From positions 1 to 46,195 of IMG/VR virus record IMGVR_UViG_3300021445_000001: a stretch of 46,195 bases of DNA; one strand, written 5' to 3'. The position numbers and the translations under genes were made by a program. The notes below the pieces were generated by a model, which was given only the letters and a program-made list of their open reading frames with translations, was not told the DNA's origin and made no database searches. Origin of the DNA: a virus. Shown piece after piece: positions 1 through 46,195 of the stretch. How positions within the stretch are numbered: the first letter of the stretch is position 1; the number at the start of each line of letters is the position of its first letter.

Positions 1-127
1 ACCGCGCTTTCACTGTATCTCTCCACTTCTGAATCACTTTGCACTGAGTGATCCTGGCGGTGCCGGGGTTAGAACCCCGGCACCACTAGCTACCTTCAGT
101 ACTTGCATGGGTTTTCGATGATCTGAT
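1..127. repeat. Terminal overlap copy 1 (identical to 46069-46195)
   Basis: Both ends read accgcgctttcactgtatct...gggttttcgatgatctgat. The length of 127 nt equals a common de Bruijn k-mer size. Confidence 0.9.
59..84 (-). terminator. GC-rich hairpin between two minus-strand genes (terminator-like, no U tract)
   Basis: GGTGCCGGGGTT-AG-AACCCCGGCACC with 12-nt arms. It lies between the stop of 96..290 and the start of the gene beginning at 46105 (equivalent to position 37). Confidence 0.35.
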
Positions 128-17978: not shown

Positions 17979-18050
17979 TCGGGTGTGGGCCAATGGTCGG
18001 CCGCCTGCTTTGGGAGCAGGAATACGGGAGTTCGATTCTCTCCATCCGGA
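17979..18050 (+). tRNA. tRNA-Pro (anticodon TGG)
   Basis: Hand-folded cloverleaf: acceptor TCGGGTG/CATCCGG (two G.U pairs), D arm GGCC-AATGGTC-GGCC, anticodon arm CCTGC-TTTGGGA-GCAGG, T arm GGGAG-TTCGATT-CTCTC. Confidence 0.8.
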
Positions 18051-18152
18051 CTCTGCACCAGCTCTTTCAGCGCTGGCTGTATGTATCAAAGTCTGAAATC
18101 CACCAGGTATCCGTCAAGCTCCCCGGCTTGATGCGGCCTTTAACAGGGAGTT

Positions 18153-28675: not shown

Positions 28676-28810
28676 ATGACGGGCTCTAAAGCCTGCCTGG
28701 CCAAGATTGCCGCCGCGATACTCCTTTTTCTCCTCTTGCCAGGCCTATGGGCTCTAAGCGCGGTCTTCCTCCTGATTGCCGAAAGCCTGCACGAGCATTA
28801 CAGCCACTAA
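28676..28810 (+). CDS. small membrane protein, 44 aa
   Basis: Translated by hand: MTGSKACLAKIAAAILLFLLLPGLWALSAVFLLIAESLHEHYSH. It is the last ORF before the operon terminator. Confidence 0.4.
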   Translation: MTGSKACLAKIAAAILLFLLLPGLWALSAVFLLIAESLHEHYSH

Positions 28811-28818
28811 ACAGTGCA

Positions 28819-28844
28819 GCCCCCCTCCCTTTCGGGAGGGGGGC
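28819..28844 (+). terminator. Late-operon terminator hairpin GCCCCCCTCCC-TTTC-GGGAGGGGGGC
   Basis: 11-bp GC stem followed by TATTGG, located at the plus/minus strand switch. Confidence 0.6.
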
Positions 28845-28901
28845 TATTGGCGTTGGTTGTGCCCGTCCCAACACCGGTCAGCAGCGTCCCACTGCTGACA
28901 T

Positions 28902-29063
28902 CTAGATCGCCGAGTTAAACGAGGCTGCAACCAGAAGGGTACTCCCGTCTGTCGGCGCTACGCGCCGCATCACCTCACCGGCCTGTTCCGGATCAACCTG
29001 GTCTAGCGGAACATCATCCAAATCTATCAAGTCCGAGGCCACATCATCAGCACTGAACTCCAC
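28902..29063 (-). CDS. possible small acidic protein, 53 aa
   Basis: Hand translation from a GTG start (M)EFSADDVASDLIDLDDVPLDQVDPEQAGEVMRR... with GGGGG 4 nt upstream. Followed by hairpin GTCAGCAG...CTGCTGAC at 28876-28899. Confidence 0.3.
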   Translation of the reverse strand: MEFSADDVASDLIDLDDVPLDQVDPEQAGEVMRRVAPTDGSTLLVAASFNSAI

Positions 29064-29121
29064 ATCGCCCCCAACGTTTGAGCCAGGCCAGGCGACCGGG
29101 GTGGATTTCCTGACCTGACAG

Positions 29122-29194
29122 TGGTCCCAGTAGGACTCGAACCTACGACAACCCCGGTTAAAAGCCGGGCGCTCTACCGCTGAGCTATGGGACC
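29122..29194 (-). tRNA. tRNA-Lys (anticodon TTT)
   Basis: GGTCCCATAGCTCAGCGGTAGAGCGCCCGGCTTTTAACCGGGGTTGTCGTAGGTTCGAGTCCTACTGGGACCA. All four arms pair. Confidence 0.85.
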
Positions 29195-29279
29195 AACCTA
29201 CTGGTTACAACCGGGGCCTCCACAGTGAGTCTCGCGAAGACAGCCGGCGCAATAACAAACACATTTCTTATCGGTCACG

Positions 29280-29354
29280 TGGCAGCCAAGGGATTTGAAC
29301 CGATGACCTCCGGCATATCAGGCCGGCGCTCTATCCAGACTGAGCTAGACTGCC
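29280..29354 (-). tRNA. tRNA-Ile (anticodon GAT), T stem with two mismatches
   Basis: GGCAGTC-TA-GCTC..GAGC-G-CCGGC-CTGATAT-GCCGG-AGGTC-ATCGG-TTCAAAT-CCCTT-GGCTGCC-A. The T stem ATCGG/CCCTT pairs at only 3 of 5 positions. Confidence 0.65.
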
Positions 29355-29469
29355 TCGCCCTGACAGCTCTTCGGGGGACCATCAGGGTTTATAGCTGTGA
29401 TCAGATCCGCGCATCCAGTCCGGGGCTGCCCCCTTTCTAAACTAGAAATGATCTGCAAGTTTTCTTGCG

Positions 29470-29542
29470 CTGCCGACCCTGGATTCGAACCAGGAACACA
29501 CGGATTAACAATCCGCTACTCTGCCACTTGAGTTAGCCAGCA
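29470..29542 (-). tRNA. tRNA-Asn (anticodon GTT)
   Basis: TGCTGGC-TA-ACTC-AAGTGGCA-GAGT-A-GCGGA-TTGTTAA-TCCGT-GTGTT-CCTGG-TTCGAAT-CCAGG-GTCGGCA-G. Confidence 0.8.
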
Positions 29543-29550
29543 AAACTTAG

Positions 29551-29624
29551 ACCCTACGCCTGTTCAATCGGGCTCGGCATACGGTAGCCGTCCGGAGTTC
29601 TCCTCCGGCTCTATTGGCGTAGGG
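29551..29624 (-). ncRNA. 74-nt stem-loop domain closed by a 9-bp helix (CCCTACGCC/GGCGTAGGG)
   Basis: Perfect 9-bp long-range complement enclosing the nested hairpin CCGGAG-TTCTC-CTCCGG. No ORF. Confidence 0.35.
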
Positions 29625-29630
29625 GTTAGC

Positions 29631-29755
29631 ACACCTGAGATCAAGGTGACCACGGAGATTGTTGATACCGTCACAACGTCGACCCTTGCGGGCCTCTCGG
29701 ATTTGAACCGAATTTCATTAGCAGTGAAGTATCCGTAGTCTATCGCACCAGGTGT
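29631..29755 (-). ncRNA. Structured-RNA module A (unknown family)
   Basis: Minus-strand read: CACCUG-GUGCGAUA-GACUACGGA-UACUUCA...UCCGUGGUC-ACCUUGAUCU-CAGGUG. The insert contains a T-arm-like hairpin UUCGG-UUCAAAU-CCGAG. Confidence 0.5.
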
Positions 29756-29892
29756 TGGACACTACGTGTGGCAGTTGCCACCCCAGCAATGGTTGCCAGA
29801 CGAGCAACCCTCACAACTACACGTACACTTGCACGGATCGGACAGCCATACCCACAACTTTCGCATGCTGGCTCCCGTAGAGTTCAAGGTGA

Positions 29893-29977
29893 TAGCAGAG
29901 ATCAAATCGAGTCGGCTTCTCGGTCTGATGATTAGTCAGAGTGTCGTAAGAAGTATGCCGCCTCTGCGCACCTGCTA
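29893..29977 (-). ncRNA. Structured-RNA module D (same family as A and B)
   Basis: UAGCAG-GUGCGCA-GAGGCGGC-AUACUUC...GCCGACUC-GAUUUGAUCU-CUGCUA. Confidence 0.45.
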
Positions 29978-29988
29978 CCGTACTTTGC

Positions 29989-30062
29989 GTGTCTGAGATC
30001 AAAGGGACGACAGGGTGTGATCATCCAAATATGAAGTACCTGTCATCTATCGCACCAGACAC
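29989..30062 (-). ncRNA. Structured-RNA module B (same family, minimal 74-nt version)
   Basis: GUGUCUG-GUGCGAUA-GAUGACAGG-UACUUCAUAUUUGGAUGAUCACAC-CCUGUCGUC-CCUUUGAUCU-CAGACAC. Confidence 0.5.
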
Positions 30063-30128
30063 TGAATCTGGATGGTCCCGCCCCTCAGCCGGCACATCCT
30101 ATTGAATGAAACTGAGGGGCAGAACCCG

Positions 30129-30210
30129 CTTCCGGGGCAGGCCACGCGCCTGCCATCTTTGTGGAATGTCATGGAGACCACAACGCTCTACTCTTGAGCT
30201 ACCGGAAACC
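30129..30210 (-). ncRNA. Aberrant tRNA-like element (canonical acceptor and D arm, 13-nt anticodon-position loop, no T loop)
   Basis: UUUCCGG-UA-GCUC-AAGAGUA-GAGC-G-UUGUGG-UCUCCAUGACAUU-CCACAA-AGAU-GGCAGGC-GCGUG-GCCUGCC-CCGGAAG. Confidence 0.4.
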
Positions 30211-30391
30211 AGGTAGACGCTTGTGCGGAGAGCCTACCTTGGGTGTTCACTTGTAAAGCAGCGCATGACTCACAGTGTGTCCGAATCACCCTAACCATGG
30301 ATGAGTGGTATACGTGAGCGCCGAGGTATACCGGCCCGGCTGAACGAGGAAACCAAACCGCCCGCATCAGACAGCCAGGATTCTTTGCCCG

Positions 30392-30468
30392 TAGCGGTAG
30401 GTGGGATTTGAACCCACGATCTCCGGCTTATGAGGCCGGCGGGGACAGCCGAGCTCCCCTACTCCGCT
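30392..30468 (-). tRNA. tRNA-Met-like (anticodon CAT) with irregular acceptor stem
   Basis: Anticodon arm CCGGC-CTCATAA-GCCGG, T arm GTGGG-TTCAAAT-CCCAC and D stem GGGG/CCCC are good. The acceptor strands GCGGAGT / CTACCGC pair only partly, or need one extra nucleotide. Confidence 0.55.
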
Positions 30469-30576
30469 TCCGGAAGATCCACAATCGACACATCGCCAGG
30501 ATGTGGGCGCTCTACTGCTTCTCTTCCGTTCTCACCTTGCTGGCTTAGGAGGGCTTTGCTTGGTGATGGACTCAGC

Positions 30577-31026
30577 TTAGAGACGCAGACCACTGACTGT
30601 CAACCCAGATTTTGGGCGGAACTCCATCGGCGTTAAATCACCCTGGCGCACCCCGATGAGCGTTTTTGCCACAGCAACAGGGAAGTTGGGGTCAAAGTCC
30701 ATTTCGCCCGTCTTGGGGTTGAACGCCATGTAATACACGATGATCTCCCCCACCTGTTCGCAGTAGTATATAAAGTTCGTGATCTTATTGTGGATGGCGT
30801 ACCAGCCGGGCTTGATCGGCTCAGGCTTGGGTGCCGGCTTCACGTAAAACTGGATCGTCTTCGGCGTGGCGTCCACCAGGTCAGACAGTTTGATCATGCG
30901 GTTATCGCCAGTGCCGTACTTGACCATGGCCACGTTGTCTTCGATATGCACGATTGTTCCGTGCGCGCCCCAGCTGTGACCATCACCCTTGCGCCGAACC
31001 TGCTGGCCTTTAACAAATTCTGCCAC
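30577..31026 (-). CDS. hypothetical protein, 149 aa
   Basis: ORF track; directly downstream of the polymerase gene on the same strand. Confidence 0.65.
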   Translation of the reverse strand: MAEFVKGQQVRRKGDGHSWGAHGTIVHIEDNVAMVKYGTGDNRMIKLSDLVDATPKTIQFYVKPAPKPEPIKPGWYAIHNKITNFIYYCEQVGEIIVYYMAFNPKTGEMDFDPNFPVAVAKTLIGVRQGDLTPMEFRPKSGLTVSGLRL

Positions 31027-31032
31027 TTTCCG

Positions 31033-32829
31033 TTACTGCTCCTTTTCGTAGAGTGATCCCCAAGATCGCCCACCGATCTTGGCTGTTGCCGGCATGTCCA
31101 CCGGCCCGATTTTGGTGCTCATGATTTGCTCGATCTCCGCCACCATGTCCAGGCTGTCCTCGGGCACTGAGAAAATGATCTCGTCGTGGACGGCCAACCT
31201 CATGTAGGGCAGAAACCCCGCGTCATACAGCCTCACCATGCCCTGCGCTGTGACGTCCCGGCACCCTGACTGCACGTAGTAGTTGAGCGCCGCGTACAGG
31301 CGGTTCTGATCGACGGGCAGTTGCCTGCCCGTCCACGTGGTGATGTAGCCGTTTTGACTCGCCTCGTACATGAGTGCCCTGGCCTTGCCAGCGATCCCCG
31401 GGTAGGCCTTCTTGATGGCTTCTCGCACCGTCTGGGCCTGTTCCAGGGTCATCCCGAACTGATCCATGAGCGCCTGGTTGCCGCCACCGTAGAGGGTCGC
31501 GAAGTTTCCCCCCTTGCCATACTTGCGCATGGCTTCACCCTGACCGGGCCACGCAGTCTCCGCCGTGATGGTGTGCAGATCTTCGTTGTTGCGAAACGCT
31601 CGGATCATCCGAGCGTCAGGGGCCATGGCCGCGATGAACCGCAACTCCTGATTGGAGTAGTCACACGCAACGATTCGATGCCCGATGTCTGCCACAAAGG
31701 AAGATCTCACCGTGGAATCCCCAGACGGCAGGGTCTGTGCCGGAATCCCAGTGATAGAGAACCTGGCAGTCCTTGCACGCAAGGTAGACGTCGATGGGTG
31801 TACACGTCCCGTACTGTCCTGTTGTGTCAGGAACTTCTCTATCCACGTCGTTCGCCACTTTCGAGCCTTCTTTCCCTCCACGATGGCTTGCACCAAGTCG
31901 TCTCCAAGATGCGCCTTCAAGAGGGTTTTGTCTACAGCCGGCTTGCCTGTGGGTGTGGTGCGGTCTGGCTTGATGCCCCGAGGCTCTAGAGCCTCGGCGA
32001 CCTGGACCGGGGAGTTGATGTTGTCGCAGCCAAGCTCCCTTGCCAATGCCTTACAGCGAACCTCCGTGGCTATGAGTGTCTGTTTCAGATTCTCGGTGTA
32101 CTCGACGTCGAGGAGAAAGCCCCTGGCGTCCATCTGTGACACGAGTTTGGCGAGTTTGTGTTCGAACACCACCAGGTGGCCGAATCTTCGCATGAAAGCA
32201 TCAGTAAGTAGATGTGCTCCAAGCTGTGCTGTCACGATCGTGTCAGTGCCCGAATACAGCAGATACACCAAGTTGTCGATCGGCATCACTTCGAACATGC
32301 GTGCTAACGGAGTGTTTTTAGGAATCTCTCCGGAAGCCTTGAGCCTGGCGAACTCCTCACGTAGAGTGGTTCCCAACTTGCGGGACTTCGGAAGGTAGCG
32401 CTCGGCGAGATCTTCAAGACTGTGACCTACACCACCTTCTTCACGGCCACGGGGATCTGCCAGATGTGATATGATTTTGGTGCACCTGGTGGCGGGCCAG
32501 AGAGCTTCAGGATCGAAACCGTAGTGCCGGCACAACACCTGAATATCGTAGCTGGCGAAATGCATAACAATTCGGATACGATTGGCTAACAGCTTGCCTA
32601 TCACTTCGAGGGCCACGGAGTGCATGTGTGGTTTCTCGACCTGAATAACCCACGCTTCACGTGGGTTGCCGAGCTGAAGCAGACGTATTCGGTGGTTTGG
32701 GGAATAGATGTCGAGACCGGTGGTCTCGGTATCCAGCGCAACGGTAGACTGGTGGTTGAGCCAGCCCAATAGGGCTGGCAGATCTTCGGGAGTCTCCACA
32801 ACGCGGATGTTTGAACTGATCGTCCGCAT
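31033..32829 (-). CDS. polA: DNA polymerase I (family A) with 3'-5' exonuclease domain, 598 aa
   Basis: Exo motif VALDTETTGLD. Pol motifs DYSNQELRFIAA, RKYGKGGNFATLYGGG, YVQSGCRDV and AVHDEIIF. Confidence 0.9.
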   Translation of the reverse strand: MRTISSNIRVVETPEDLPALLGWLNHQSTVALDTETTGLDIYSPNHRIRLLQLGNPREAWVIQVEKPHMHSVALEVIGKLLANRIRIVMHFASYDIQVLCRHYGFDPEALWPATRCTKIISHLADPRGREEGGVGHSLEDLAERYLPKSRKLGTTLREEFARLKASGEIPKNTPLARMFEVMPIDNLVYLLYSGTDTIVTAQLGAHLLTDAFMRRFGHLVVFEHKLAKLVSQMDARGFLLDVEYTENLKQTLIATEVRCKALARELGCDNINSPVQVAEALEPRGIKPDRTTPTGKPAVDKTLLKAHLGDDLVQAIVEGKKARKWRTTWIEKFLTQQDSTGRVHPSTSTLRARTARFSITGIPAQTLPSGDSTVRSSFVADIGHRIVACDYSNQELRFIAAMAPDARMIRAFRNNEDLHTITAETAWPGQGEAMRKYGKGGNFATLYGGGNQALMDQFGMTLEQAQTVREAIKKAYPGIAGKARALMYEASQNGYITTWTGRQLPVDQNRLYAALNYYVQSGCRDVTAQGMVRLYDAGFLPYMRLAVHDEIIFSVPEDSLDMVAEIEQIMSTKIGPVDMPATAKIGGRSWGSLYEKEQ

Positions 32830-45894: not shown

Positions 45895-46105
45895 TGGAAC
45901 CCACCTTGATGCACGTCTTGCAGGTGATCTCCACGTCAGAGTTCATGTTGTGGCGGACACCACGAGCCTTTCGGCCACACAGCGTGAAGTTCTCTCGGAT
46001 GTAGGACCAGTTCCCATCGGATGTGGCGTGAATGACGCCGTTGAGCCCGTCCGACAGCATTGCCCCAAACCGCGCTTTCACTGTATCTCTCCACTTCTGA
46101 ATCAC
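45887..46105 (-). CDS. hypothetical protein, 72 aa (CxxC at C-terminus); start lies inside the terminal overlap
   Basis: ORF track. The start at 46105 corresponds to position 37 of the circle. Confidence 0.55.
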   Translation of the reverse strand: MIQKWRDTVKARFGAMLSDGLNGVIHATSDGNWSYIRENFTLCGRKARGVRHNMNSDVEITCKTCIKVGSND

Positions 46106-46195
46106 TTTGCACTGAGTGATCCTGGCGGTGCCGGGGTTAGAACCCCGGCACCACTAGCTACCTTCAGTACTTGCATGGGTTTTCGATGATCTGAT
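46069..46195. repeat. Terminal overlap copy 2 (identical to 1-127)
   Basis: Read directly from the sequence. Confidence 0.9.

What the first reader, a model, noticed from the sequence alone, without database searches (positions are those of the whole stretch)
29631..30062. Three paralogous structured-RNA modules with compensatory stem changes inside the tRNA cluster
On the minus strand (the tRNA strand), three elements share one architecture.
- A (29755->29631): CACCUG | GUGCGAUA | GACUACGGA | UACUUCA...insert... | UCCGUGGUC | ACCUUGAUCU | CAGGUG.
- B (30062->29989, only 74 nt): GUGUCUG | GUGCGAUA | GAUGACAGG | UACUUCA...24 nt | CCUGUCGUC | CCUUUGAUCU | CAGACAC.
- D (29977->29893): UAGCAG | GUGCGCA | GAGGCGGC | AUACUUC... 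| GCCGACUC | GAUUUGAUCU | CUGCUA.

The outer helix and the inner helix have different sequences in each copy but stay complementary. The joining strands (GUGCGAUA, UACUUC, YUUGAUCU) are conserved. That is the pattern expected for a selected RNA fold, not for a protein gene or a DNA repeat.

In A and B the inner helix has a G.U pair on the minus-strand transcript, which would be a C.A mismatch on the plus strand. This argues for transcription in the tRNA direction.

The fold is not a cloverleaf, and I do not see a hammerhead core (CUGANGA/GAAA). I cannot place it in any RNA family I know.
Basis: seen in the sequence. Interest (0 to 1): 0.85.

Follow-up and report, generated by a model that had tools for sequence, protein, structure and literature searches.

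The report
Phage Y RNAs without a Ro60 gene
The three look-alike RNA modules are real, but they are not an unknown family: they are Y RNAs, the small RNAs that dock onto the Ro60/Rsr protein, here carried in the tRNA cluster of a complete phage genome that has no Ro60 gene and so probably uses the host's.

Summary
Three minus-strand modules share one two-helix fold: A at 29631-29755, D at 29892-29978 and B at 29989-30062. The joiners GGUGCG, UACUUC and UUGAUCUC are conserved, and the helices carry compensatory changes.

The modules are not an unplaced family. They are Y RNAs. The same signature with the same fold lies 0-2 kb upstream, on the same strand, of TROVE/Ro60 genes:
- 84 of 95 folded matches in bacterial genomes, mostly Streptomyces, have a TROVE ORF in the 8-kb piece; 0 of 25 unfolded matches do.
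- 36 of 43 folded matches in viral contigs do.

A covariance model built only from Ro60-adjacent RNAs finds exactly these three sites in the window (E 2e-8 to 2e-5). Module A carries the YrlA-type tRNA-like head. B and D are short, YrlB-like hairpins.

What is unusual is the setting. The window is a complete ~46-kb temperate actinophage genome with no TROVE gene. Five of seven related phages carry 1-4 such modules at the same place in their tRNA cluster.

Most likely these are phage Y RNAs that engage the host's Rsr/Ro60. This is inferred, not shown. I rate it a new variant of a known kind, of moderate interest.

The parts
29989..30062 (-). Module B: short Y RNA (YrlB-like), 74 nt. Outer helix GUGUCUG/CAGACAC, 5' joiner GUGCGAUA, inner helix GAUGACAGG/CCUGUCGUC, UACUUC followed by a 24-nt pyrimidine-rich head, 3' joiner CCUUUGAUCU.
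   Evidence: Sequence. MFE fold, z=-3.6. Model R1, built only from Ro60-adjacent RNAs, scores it 45.9 bits, E=1.6e-8. Similar to L267 12905-12972, and shares its outer helix with the YrlA-like L267 12668-12801.
29892..29978 (-). Module D: short Y RNA, 87 nt. Outer helix GUAGCAG/CUGCUAU, 5' joiner GUGCGCA, inner helix GAGGCGGC/GCCGACUC with one G x A mismatch, then AUACUUC, 3' joiner GAUUUGAUCU.
   Evidence: Sequence. Fold. R1 scores it 34.3 bits, E=7e-6. Orthologue at L267 12810-12896, 72% identical.
29631..29755 (-). Module A: YrlA-like Y RNA, 125 nt. Outer helix ACACCUG/CAGGUGU, 5' joiner GUGCGAUA, inner helix GACUACGGA/UCCGUGGUC, UACUUC, tRNA-like head, 3' joiner ACCUUGAUCU.
   Evidence: Fold, z=-2.9. 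R1 scores it 48.0 bits, E=1.6e-8 over its full length, or 19.6 bits as a local match with filters off. Orthologues at L264 2409-2534 and L269 8975-9098, with 10 of 35 pairs changed on both sides.
29661..29711 (-). tRNA-like domain inside module A. T arm UCGG-UUCAAAU-CCGA (29697-29711), capped acceptor-like hairpin GGCCC-GCAA-GGGUC (29681-29694), D-like arm GUUG-UGACGGUAU-CAAC (29661-29677).
   Evidence: Read from the sequence and the fold. The arms come in the same order as in the Rfam YrlA consensus, shown on the Bxz1 control. The T stem and D-like stem covary among the three orthologues. D-like arms of the same type occur in Ro60-adjacent long Y RNAs L062 and L141.
30391..30468 (-). tRNA-Met, first gene of the tRNA / Y RNA cluster. 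It is the conserved first member of the cluster in every relative examined.
   Evidence: ARAGORN and Rfam. 80-98% identical in L265, L267, L268, L269, L270 and L271.
29121..29542 (-). tRNA-Asn (29469-29542), tRNA-Ile (29279-29354) and tRNA-Lys (29121-29194), downstream of the Y RNAs on the same strand.
   Evidence: ARAGORN and Rfam.
30128..30213 (-). Degenerate tRNA-like element between tRNA-Met and module B. It belongs to the cluster but is not a Y RNA.
   Evidence: Cloverleaf-like fold, z=-3.2. Its 5' end matches tRNAs in L271 and L265. Not called by ARAGORN or Rfam.

Best explanation
The three modules are phage-encoded Y RNAs: one YrlA-like RNA with a tRNA-like head (A) and two short YrlB-like hairpins (B, D). 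They are probably transcribed with the tRNAs on the minus strand and cut out of the tRNA-cluster transcript.

The part they share is the docking site for the ring-shaped RNA-binding protein Ro60/Rsr: the closing helix, the 5' strand GGUGCG(A/C), the short C-G / G.U helix opposite UUGAUCUC, and the inner helix ending in UACUUC.

The phage genome is complete and has no Ro60 gene. The RNAs therefore most likely load onto the host's Rsr in an actinomycete host, probably Streptomyces-like. There they would either gate or sequester Rsr, or retarget the host Rsr-PNPase RNA-decay machine during infection or lysogeny.

Shown here: the fold, its conservation and covariation, membership of the RNA class that sits next to Ro60 genes, and the absence of Ro60 from the phage.

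Inferred, not shown: transcription and processing, binding to host Rsr, and the consequence for the host or the phage.
For: Identity as Y RNA
1. The signature GGTGCG..TACTTC..TTGATCT, taken from the window, was scanned in viral contigs. Complementarity of the flanking 7 nt is bimodal: 43 hits have 6-7 pairs and the rest have 5 or fewer. Of the 43 folded hits, 36 lie 0-1.5 kb upstream and on the same strand as an ORF of about 500-600 aa matched by a Ro60 HMM. Only 3 of 77 unfolded hits have such an ORF in the locus.
2. In bacterial genomes, 84 of 95 folded hits have such an ORF within the 8-kb piece, against 0 of 25 unfolded hits. The folded hits are nearly all Streptomyces and other Actinomycetota.
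3. Pfam confirms TROVE (PF05731) above its cutoff for six of these ORFs, including the Bxz1 control.
4. A set of 117 RNAs was chosen only for Ro60 adjacency. In it the outer helix has 6-7 of 7 pairs in 115 sequences, and the inner helix has 8-9 of 9 pairs in 90, against 1.9% of shuffled controls.
5. Model R1, built only from Ro60-adjacent RNAs, finds exactly A, B and D in the 46-kb window. The next best hit scores 11.7 bits, E=1.
6. The head of A has a T arm, a capped acceptor hairpin and a D-like arm in the YrlA order.
7. Rfam YrlA gives sub-threshold hits to cluster members of related phages (39.8 bits, E=2e-5; 32.6 bits). These are at least as good as its hit to the known Bxz1 YrlA (32.5 bits).
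8. From the literature (PMC4201824): Y RNAs have paired ends carrying the Ro60 site; GGUCCGA is contacted by Ro60; there are at least two Y RNAs per species, one tRNA-like and one a hairpin with a pyrimidine-rich loop; and in D. radiodurans they are co-transcribed with a tRNA.

No Ro60 in the phage
- The window ends overlap exactly by 127 bp, so the genome is complete.
- tblastn with Bxz1 Ro60 gives a best E of 0.5. A 102-sequence TROVE HMM against all ORFs gives a best E of 0.59. Pfam on 24 of the larger ORFs finds no TROVE domain.

Selection in the Ro60-less clade
- Relatives at 58-78% DNA polymerase identity carry 3, 3, 4, 1 and 1 modules at the same place, after tRNA-Met and downstream of the polymerase gene. 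No TROVE gene is called within 5-10 kb.
- Covariation across the 17 modules is strong.

Host plausibly has Rsr
- The nearest cultured phages by capsid infect Streptomyces lividans, S. griseus, S. scabiei and S. viridochromogenes.
- Genomes of S. griseus and S. viridochromogenes strains are among the hits that carry rsr next to a Y RNA with this same signature.
Against: - No experiment shows transcription, processing or Rsr binding.
- The host is not identified, so the presence of rsr in the actual host is unknown.
- The literal bacterial motif GNCGAAN0-1G is not matched: 4 of its 6 specified bases match.
- Rfam's YrlA and Y_RNA models do not hit the window modules.
- Copy number varies between relatives, and two relatives have none (L268, L270).
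- Several modules in relatives have drifted 3' joiners (UUGAACUC, UUGAGCUC), which could indicate relaxed constraint.
- The family signature used for the database scans came from the window itself, so the scans retrieve only the closest subfamily.
- Only about 12-22 kb of each relative's ~45-kb contig could be inspected for Ro60.
Confidence: 0.6

Rival explanations
1. They are Y-type RNAs by descent, but they act without Ro60. They might bind host PNPase or other RNases directly. They might act as tRNA-mimic decoys or stabilising elements for the phage tRNA transcript. They might serve as processing punctuation between tRNAs.
For: Phage phiLo Y-like RNAs bind host PNPase on their own in EMSA (PMC12135203). 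Module A has a tRNA-like domain. The modules lie inside a tRNA operon. No Ro60 gene is present.
Against: What B and D share with A, and with 117 Ro60-adjacent RNAs, is precisely the Ro60-site stem, while the heads are not conserved. B and D have no tRNA-like domain at all. This makes the Ro60 site the selected feature.
Confidence: 0.2
2. They are decaying relics of an ancestral phage Ro60 / Y RNA cassette, left behind after the Ro60 gene was lost, and no longer functional.
For: Cultured actinophages with Ro60 carry Y-like RNAs next to it, in one case inside a tRNA array. L130 has Ro60 followed by about five modules interleaved with tRNAs. Copy number varies in the clade and two relatives have none. 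There are drifted 3' joiners and a possible half-module relic at 29878-29892.
Against: Across 17 modules from relatives diverged to 58% polymerase identity, 98% of helix positions stay paired, through 46 double changes. Orthologues of A keep the outer, inner, T and D-like helices by compensatory change. The invariant bases of the Ro60 site are retained. This pattern indicates purifying selection, not decay.
Confidence: 0.12
3. A previously unknown structured-RNA family unrelated to Y RNA, for example a new ribozyme or riboregulator.
For: No Rfam hit for the window modules even at E<=10. The literal GNCGAAN0-1G motif is absent.
Against: There is a near-perfect association of the same signature and fold with TROVE genes. 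The head of A is YrlA-type. Rfam YrlA gives sub-threshold hits in orthologous clusters. No ribozyme family is hit.
Confidence: 0.03
4. DNA-level repeats or a small protein-coding region, not RNA genes.
For: Short ORFs of 42-76 aa overlap the region on both strands.
Against: Helices are kept by compensatory changes while their sequences diverge. G.U pairs are strand-specific. The region is a tRNA cluster. Find-by-similarity shows conservation only of RNA features.
Confidence: 0.01

Closest known systems
Bacterial and phage Y RNAs: YrlA and YrlB (Rfam RF02553; Chen et al. 2014, PMC4201824), D. radiodurans Yrn1/Yrn2
   Same: Size of 74-125 nt. The 5' and 3' ends pair into a stem carrying a conserved, bulged Ro60 site. 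A YUAY-like UAC follows the stem directly. Several Y RNAs per locus: one has a tRNA-like domain (T arm, capped acceptor, D arm), the others are hairpins with pyrimidine-rich loops. Linkage to tRNAs also has a precedent: Yrn1 and Yrn2 are co-transcribed with tRNA-Asp. Homologues with the same signature sit just upstream of rsr genes.
   Different: No Ro60/TROVE gene anywhere in this complete phage genome, whereas the published cases were found within 4 kb of Ro60. The motif is GGUGCG(A/C), not GNCGAAN0-1G. The D-like arm of A lacks the near-invariant AGCUCA..GGUAGAGC. The Rfam model does not detect these modules.
Phage Ro60 / Y RNA systems: cluster C mycobacteriophages such as Bxz1 and ET08; Thermus phage phiLo Ro60 with Yrl1/Yrl2 (PMC12135203); Streptomyces phage LuckySocke and Gordonia phage VanLee Ro-like proteins
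   Same: Phage-borne Y-like RNAs, often near or inside tRNA arrays. They are thought to manipulate host RNA turnover through PNPase.
   Different: Those phages supply their own Ro60, and most are larger (75-200 kb). Here only the RNA half of the system is carried, by a ~46-kb temperate phage, which implies dependence on a host protein.
Metazoan Y RNAs (hY1, hY3-5; Xenopus Y3)
   Same: A stem formed by the two ends. The 5'-strand motif GGUCCGA contacted by Ro60 (PMC4201824) differs from GGUGCGA at one base. The opposing strand UUGAUCU resembles UUGAC as I recall it from hY1; this comparison is from memory and was not tested. As here, the RNA genes are not linked to the Ro60 gene.
   Different: Transcribed by Pol III, no tRNA-like domain, eukaryotic. 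No direct homology was demonstrated here.
Other structured ncRNAs found in phage and mycobacterial tRNA arrays, such as GOLLD (cited in PMC9569102)
   Same: Structured non-tRNA genes embedded in tRNA arrays of actinobacteria and their phages.
   Different: GOLLD is a large RNA of several hundred nucleotides (my recollection) with an unrelated fold. Rfam gave no hit to it here.

Membership tests
Y RNA (Ro60/Rsr-associated ncRNA; bacterial YrlA/YrlB type) | The 5' and 3' ends pair into a long stem interrupted by a conserved internal loop or bulge. Size is about 70-130 nt. | tested here: met
   All three modules fold this way on their own. Across 17 clade members 98.2% of cells are paired, with strong covariation.
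Y RNA (Ro60/Rsr-associated ncRNA; bacterial YrlA/YrlB type) | Ro60-contact motif on the 5' strand of the stem: vertebrate GGUCCGA, bacterial GNCGAAN0-1G (PMC4201824). | tested here: inconclusive
   A and B have GGUGCGA, matching 6 of 7 bases of the vertebrate motif. D has GGUGCGC. Only 4 of the 6 specified bases of the literal bacterial motif match. However, 117 RNAs next to TROVE genes carry this same GGUGCG variant.
Y RNA (Ro60/Rsr-associated ncRNA; bacterial YrlA/YrlB type) | Encoded within a few kb of a Ro60/TROVE gene, on the same strand. | tested here: not met
   The window is a complete genome (127-bp end overlap) with no TROVE gene. The criterion is met by the homologous RNAs elsewhere: 36 of 43 folded hits in viral contigs and 84 of 95 in genomes. 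So linkage supports homology, but this locus is an orphan.
Y RNA (Ro60/Rsr-associated ncRNA; bacterial YrlA/YrlB type) | At least one Y RNA per genome has a tRNA-like domain: T arm, loop-capped acceptor stem and D arm, in that order. | tested here: met
   Module A has UCGG-UUCAAAU-CCGA, GGCCC-GCAA-GGGUC and GUUG-UGACGGUAU-CAAC. The D arm is non-canonical. The canonical AGCUCA..GGUAGAGC arm is present in the related L264 2543-2686 and L269 8531-8660.
Y RNA (Ro60/Rsr-associated ncRNA; bacterial YrlA/YrlB type) | [quoted passage not shown] | tested here: met
   B and D have the stem and Ro60 site followed by UACUUCAUAUUU.. and UACUUCUUAC.. heads, with no tRNA-like domain.
Y RNA (Ro60/Rsr-associated ncRNA; bacterial YrlA/YrlB type) | Scores at or above the gathering threshold of Rfam YrlA (RF02553, 69 bits) or Y_RNA. 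| tested here: not met
   No hit to A, B or D at E<=10. Related cluster members score 39.8 and 32.6 bits. The known Bxz1 YrlA scores only 32.5 bits, so the model is too narrow for actinophage members.
Y RNA (Ro60/Rsr-associated ncRNA; bacterial YrlA/YrlB type) | Physically bound by Ro60/Rsr, and stabilised by it. | not testable with these tools
   Needs RIP, EMSA or Northern blots in wild-type and rsr-deleted hosts.
tRNA | Cloverleaf with an anticodon arm, recognised by ARAGORN or Rfam RF00005. | tested here: not met
   ARAGORN and Rfam call only the flanking tRNAs. The modules have no anticodon arm, and the acceptor-like stem of A is capped by a loop.
Self-cleaving ribozymes and other curated structured RNAs in Rfam 15 | Match to any of the 4227 covariance models. 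| tested here: not met
   Only chance-level hits (snoU13, Ocean-VII, E>1) in 29620-30075.

The most novel reading that the evidence does not exclude
A clade of small temperate actinophages carries only the RNA half of the Ro60 / Y RNA system. It would use arrays of 'orphan' Y RNAs, produced from the tRNA operon, to capture the host's Ro60/Rsr. The RNAs would either act as decoys that shut down host RNA surveillance or redirect the host Rsr-PNPase degradation machine. As far as the papers I searched show, this would be the first case of virus-encoded Y RNAs that act on a host Ro60. It would resemble the viral non-coding RNAs of eukaryotic viruses that sequester host RNA-binding proteins.
Probability: 0.4. 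Interest if true: 0.75.

Novelty: new variant of a known kind. Interest (0 to 1): 0.55.

Why it matters
Y RNAs and Ro60 are conserved from bacteria to humans, and Ro60 is a lupus/Sjogren autoantigen. Their bacterial function is still poorly understood, and every published phage case brings its own Ro60.

A complete phage genome that keeps three selected Y RNAs and no Ro60 implies that a phage RNA works through a host protein. That gives a simple genetic handle on what the Rsr / Y RNA complex does during infection: delete the modules, or delete the host rsr gene.

Two practical points also follow:
- The curated Rfam model misses a large actinobacterial and actinophage subfamily. The signature GGUGCG..UACUUC..UUGAUCUC recovers members next to rsr genes in Streptomyces and other actinomycete genomes.
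- Un-annotated gaps in phage tRNA clusters can hold such RNAs.

Tried and rejected
- Rfam at gathering threshold and at E<=10 over the region gave nothing for the modules.
- ARAGORN does not call them as tRNA or tmRNA.
- BLASTN of the 432-nt region against 50,697 GenBank phage records gave only two chance-level matches of about 25 nt. BLASTN of the wider cluster hit only the tRNAs.
- I searched for a Ro60 gene in the window by Pfam on 24 ORFs, by tblastn and by two TROVE HMMs. None was found.
- The promoter/terminator scan of 28800-31100 gave no more sites than shuffles do.
- The 59-aa ORF at 30188-30367 does not look like a real gene.
- Related-locus searches with the DNA polymerase in viral and metagenome contigs gave only contigs cut off just after the polymerase gene, plus the contig already held as L126.
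- An exact-protein look-up of the window polymerase by DNA reference returned nothing, although the homology search lists it as P0001.
- Streptomyces phage FlowerPower, the closest cultured group by capsid, has 21 tRNAs but no Y module.
- The MAFFT alignments A2 and A3 did not align the 3' strand of the inner helix well. I therefore analysed the inner helix with an anchored script, and model R1 carries only 13 pairs.
- The spacers at 29543-29630 and 29756-29892 have no counterpart in relatives.
Full report
**1. What is in the sequence**

They lie inside a cluster of minus-strand tRNAs: Met 30391-30468, Asn 29469-29542, Ile 29279-29354 and Lys 29121-29194.

RNAfold folds each element on its own into the same shape:
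- a 7-bp closing helix;
- a G-C pair across a bulged U;
- a 2x2 internal loop;
- a short C-G / G.U helix;
- a second internal loop;
- an inner helix of about 9 bp;
- a variable head.

GGTGCG-N(8-20)-TACTTC occurs three times in the window, only here, against 0.08 expected by chance. Minor corrections: the outer helix of A is 7 bp, D gains a terminal G.U pair, and D has one internal mismatch.

**2. What family it is**

Rfam gives nothing for these elements even at E<=10. The layout, however, is that of a Y RNA. The ends pair into a stem carrying a conserved bulged site, and the 5' strand GGUGCGA differs at one base from the GGUCCGA that Ro60 contacts in Xenopus Y RNA (PMC4201824).

The head of A contains, in order, a T arm (UCGG-UUCAAAU-CCGA), a loop-capped acceptor-like hairpin (GGCCC-GCAA-GGGUC) and a D-like arm (GUUG-UGACGGUAU-CAAC). 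That order is the defining oddity of bacterial YrlA. The Rfam YrlA alignment to the known mycobacteriophage Bxz1 RNA shows the same order.

I tested the idea without relying on resemblance. I scanned viral contigs with the signature GGTGCG..TACTTC..TTGATCT.
- Complementarity of the 7 nt flanking each hit is bimodal: 31 hits have 7 of 7 pairs, 12 have 6 of 7, and the rest have 5 or fewer.
- An HMM seeded from Bxz1 Ro60 finds ORFs of about 500-600 aa in the same loci.
- 36 of the 43 folded hits lie 0-1.5 kb upstream, on the same strand, of such an ORF. Only 3 of 77 unfolded hits have one in the locus.

In bacterial genomes the split is 84 of 95 folded hits against 0 of 25 unfolded hits. Six of the 11 folded exceptions have under 350 nt of downstream sequence in the piece held. 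Pfam confirms TROVE above its cutoff for six of these ORFs.

The folded genomic hits are almost all Streptomyces, Kitasatospora, Lentzea, Micromonospora and other Actinomycetota.

I then took 117 distinct RNAs chosen only for Ro60 adjacency.
- The outer helix has 6-7 of 7 pairs in 115 of them.
- The inner helix has 8-9 of 9 pairs in 90 of them, against 1.9% of shuffled controls.
- The fourth inner-helix position is usually a mismatch, as it is in module D.

A long-head version of the scan recovers YrlA-like RNAs with T arms, again mostly next to TROVE ORFs.

A covariance model built only from 33 Ro60-adjacent short RNAs (R1) finds exactly three sites in the whole window:

| Module | Bits | E-value |
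|---|---|---|
| B | 45.9 | about 2e-8 |
| A (full length) | 48.0 | 1.6e-8 |
| D | 34.3 | about 1e-5 |
| next best hit | 11.7 | 1 |

The signature came from the window, so the model is not fully independent of it. The independent evidence is the Ro60 linkage.

**3. What is unusual: no Ro60 in the phage**

The first and last 127 bases of the window are identical. This is typical of a circular assembly, so the window is a complete genome of about 46.07 kb. It has:
- terminase, capsid and tail genes;
- a GH25 lysin;
- DNA polymerase I, WhiB, a PD-(D/E)XK nuclease and a DnaB-like helicase;
- a serine integrase.

It is therefore a temperate actinophage. Its capsid protein is closest (about 60%) to Streptomyces phages of the same size and gene order, such as FlowerPower, Manuel and Kumquat.

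No TROVE protein is encoded:
- Pfam on 24 ORFs finds none;
- tblastn with Bxz1 Ro60 gives a best E of 0.5;
- a 102-sequence TROVE HMM against all 235 ORFs gives a best E of 0.59.

Published bacterial and phage Y RNAs were found within 4 kb of Ro60, in genomes pre-selected for having Ro60 (PMC4201824). The phiLo, Listeria-phage and mycobacteriophage cases all have a phage Ro60 (PMC12135203, PMC12282133). I found no paper in the searched library that describes phage Y RNAs without one.

**4. Conservation in the Ro60-less clade**

Homologues of the polymerase occur on many contigs of about 45-47 kb. I fetched seven relatives with 56-78% polymerase identity. In all of them a cluster starting with tRNA-Met follows the polymerase gene. 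No TROVE gene is called within 5-10 kb.

| Relative | Y modules | tRNAs called by ARAGORN |
|---|---|---|
| L264 (= L126) | 3 | 3 |
| L267 | 3 | 5 |
| L269 | 4 | 3 |
| L265 | 1 | 4 |
| L271 | 1 | 4 |
| L268 | 0 | 22 |
| L270 | 0 | 6 |

Orthology is visible:
- A corresponds to L264 2409-2534 and L269 8975-9098.
- D corresponds to L267 12810-12896.
- B shares its outer helix with L267 12668-12801, which has a full tRNA-like head.

The three A orthologues keep 35 predicted pairs, 10 of them through changes on both sides. These include pairs in the outer helix, the inner helix, the T stem and the D-like stem.

Across 17 modules from Ro60-less loci:

| Measure | Observed | Shuffled partners | Slid partners |
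|---|---|---|---|
| Cells paired | 98.2% | 76% | 36-45% |
| Double-change cells | 46 | 11.8 | 0-9 |

Rfam YrlA gives sub-threshold hits to two cluster members in relatives: 39.8 bits (E=2e-5, full model) and 32.6 bits.

Cultured Ro60-encoding actinophages (Streptomyces phage LuckySocke, Gordonia phage VanLee) have weak R1 hits just upstream of the Ro gene. In LuckySocke the Ro gene lies inside a tRNA array. Contig L130 has Ro60 followed by about five modules interleaved with eight tRNAs. The window therefore looks like the same cassette without the protein.

**5. Mechanism**

Shown: the fold, the family, selection on the fold, and the absence of Ro60.

Inferred: the RNAs are made from the tRNA-cluster transcript. 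There is a precedent: D. radiodurans Yrn1 and Yrn2 are co-transcribed with tRNA-Asp (PMC4201824).

The only feature A, B and D share is the Ro60-site stem. Streptomyces-type chromosomal Y RNAs carry the same site next to rsr. So the RNAs most likely load onto the host's Rsr.

The consequence could be either of two things:
- gating or sequestration of Rsr, since Y RNA blocks Ro60's cavity in other systems;
- formation of an Rsr / Y RNA / PNPase complex with altered activity. The phiLo complex attenuates host PNPase (PMC12135203).

I put about 0.9 on 'these are Y RNAs' and about 0.6 on the whole statement including host-Rsr engagement.

Rivals: a Ro60-independent role such as PNPase binding, tRNA-mimic decoy or processing element (0.2); non-functional relics (0.12), which the covariation argues against; a truly new family (0.03).

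**6. Verdict**

It missed the family.

The finding is not a new RNA class. It is a new subfamily and context of Y RNAs that Rfam does not detect. The notable twist is that a complete temperate phage, and a clade of its relatives, carry the RNAs without the protein. I rate it a new variant of a known kind, with interest about 0.55.

Noticed in passing
window 30128-30213 (-): Cloverleaf-like degenerate tRNA between tRNA-Met and module B. It has an 8-bp acceptor stem, a canonical-looking D arm (GCUC-AAGAGUA-GAGC), a 6-bp 'anticodon' stem with a 13-nt loop, and a G+C-rich hairpin without a T-loop motif in place of the T arm (z=-3.2). Its 5' end matches tRNAs in relatives L271 and L265. ARAGORN and Rfam do not call it.
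   Followed up: partly
window 30066-30125 (-): A near-perfect hairpin of about 17 bp (GGGUUCUGCCCCUCAGU...GCUGAGGGGCGGGACC) immediately upstream of module B. Together with the tRNA-like element the region folds with z=-4.9. Its role is unknown; it could be a processing site or a terminator-like structure without a U tract.
   Followed up: no
window 29543-29630 (-): An 88-nt spacer packed exactly between module A and tRNA-Asn. It folds into a 9-bp closing stem with two internal hairpins (z=-3.6). It has no similarity in the related phages and no Rfam hit.
   Followed up: partly
window 29878-29892 (-): Directly after module D, the sequence UCACCUUGAACUCUAC resembles the 3' joiner plus outer strand (..UUGAACUC..CUAC) of modules in relatives (L264 2308-2383, L267 12810-12896). 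It may be a relic half-module from recombination between Y RNA copies. The rest of the 137-nt gap 29756-29892 has no detectable homologue.
   Followed up: partly
window 1-127 and 46069-46195: Exact 127-bp identity between the two ends of the window. This indicates a circularly assembled, complete phage genome of about 46,068 bp.
   Followed up: yes
window 17979-18051 (+): A lone tRNA-Pro inside the structural gene block, just upstream of the capsid gene. Streptomyces phage FlowerPower has a 21-tRNA array at the same position. This phage lineage therefore has two alternative tRNA-cluster sites.
   Followed up: partly
L268 7344-9792; L130 1728-7122; L272 (Streptomyces phage LuckySocke): The tRNA cluster downstream of the polymerase gene varies widely between close relatives, from 3 tRNAs plus 3-4 Y RNAs to 22 tRNAs and no Y RNA. 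In L130 and LuckySocke a Ro60 gene is embedded in a tRNA array. This suggests that Y RNA / Ro60 cassettes and tRNA arrays travel together in actinophages.
   Followed up: partly
genome loci L142-L261: The signature GGUGCG..UACUUC..UUGAUCUCNG with a flanking 7-bp helix marks a short Y RNA directly upstream of rsr in a large number of Streptomyces and other actinomycete genomes. Rfam YrlA does not appear to cover these short RNAs.
   Followed up: partly
L269 9916-10125; L271 7463-7651; L126 1306-1508: Small DUF397-type ORFs occur next to the tRNA / Y RNA cluster in relatives. I recall DUF397 as typical of Streptomyces and related actinomycetes, which would fit the host guess. The window has no clear counterpart.
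   Followed up: no
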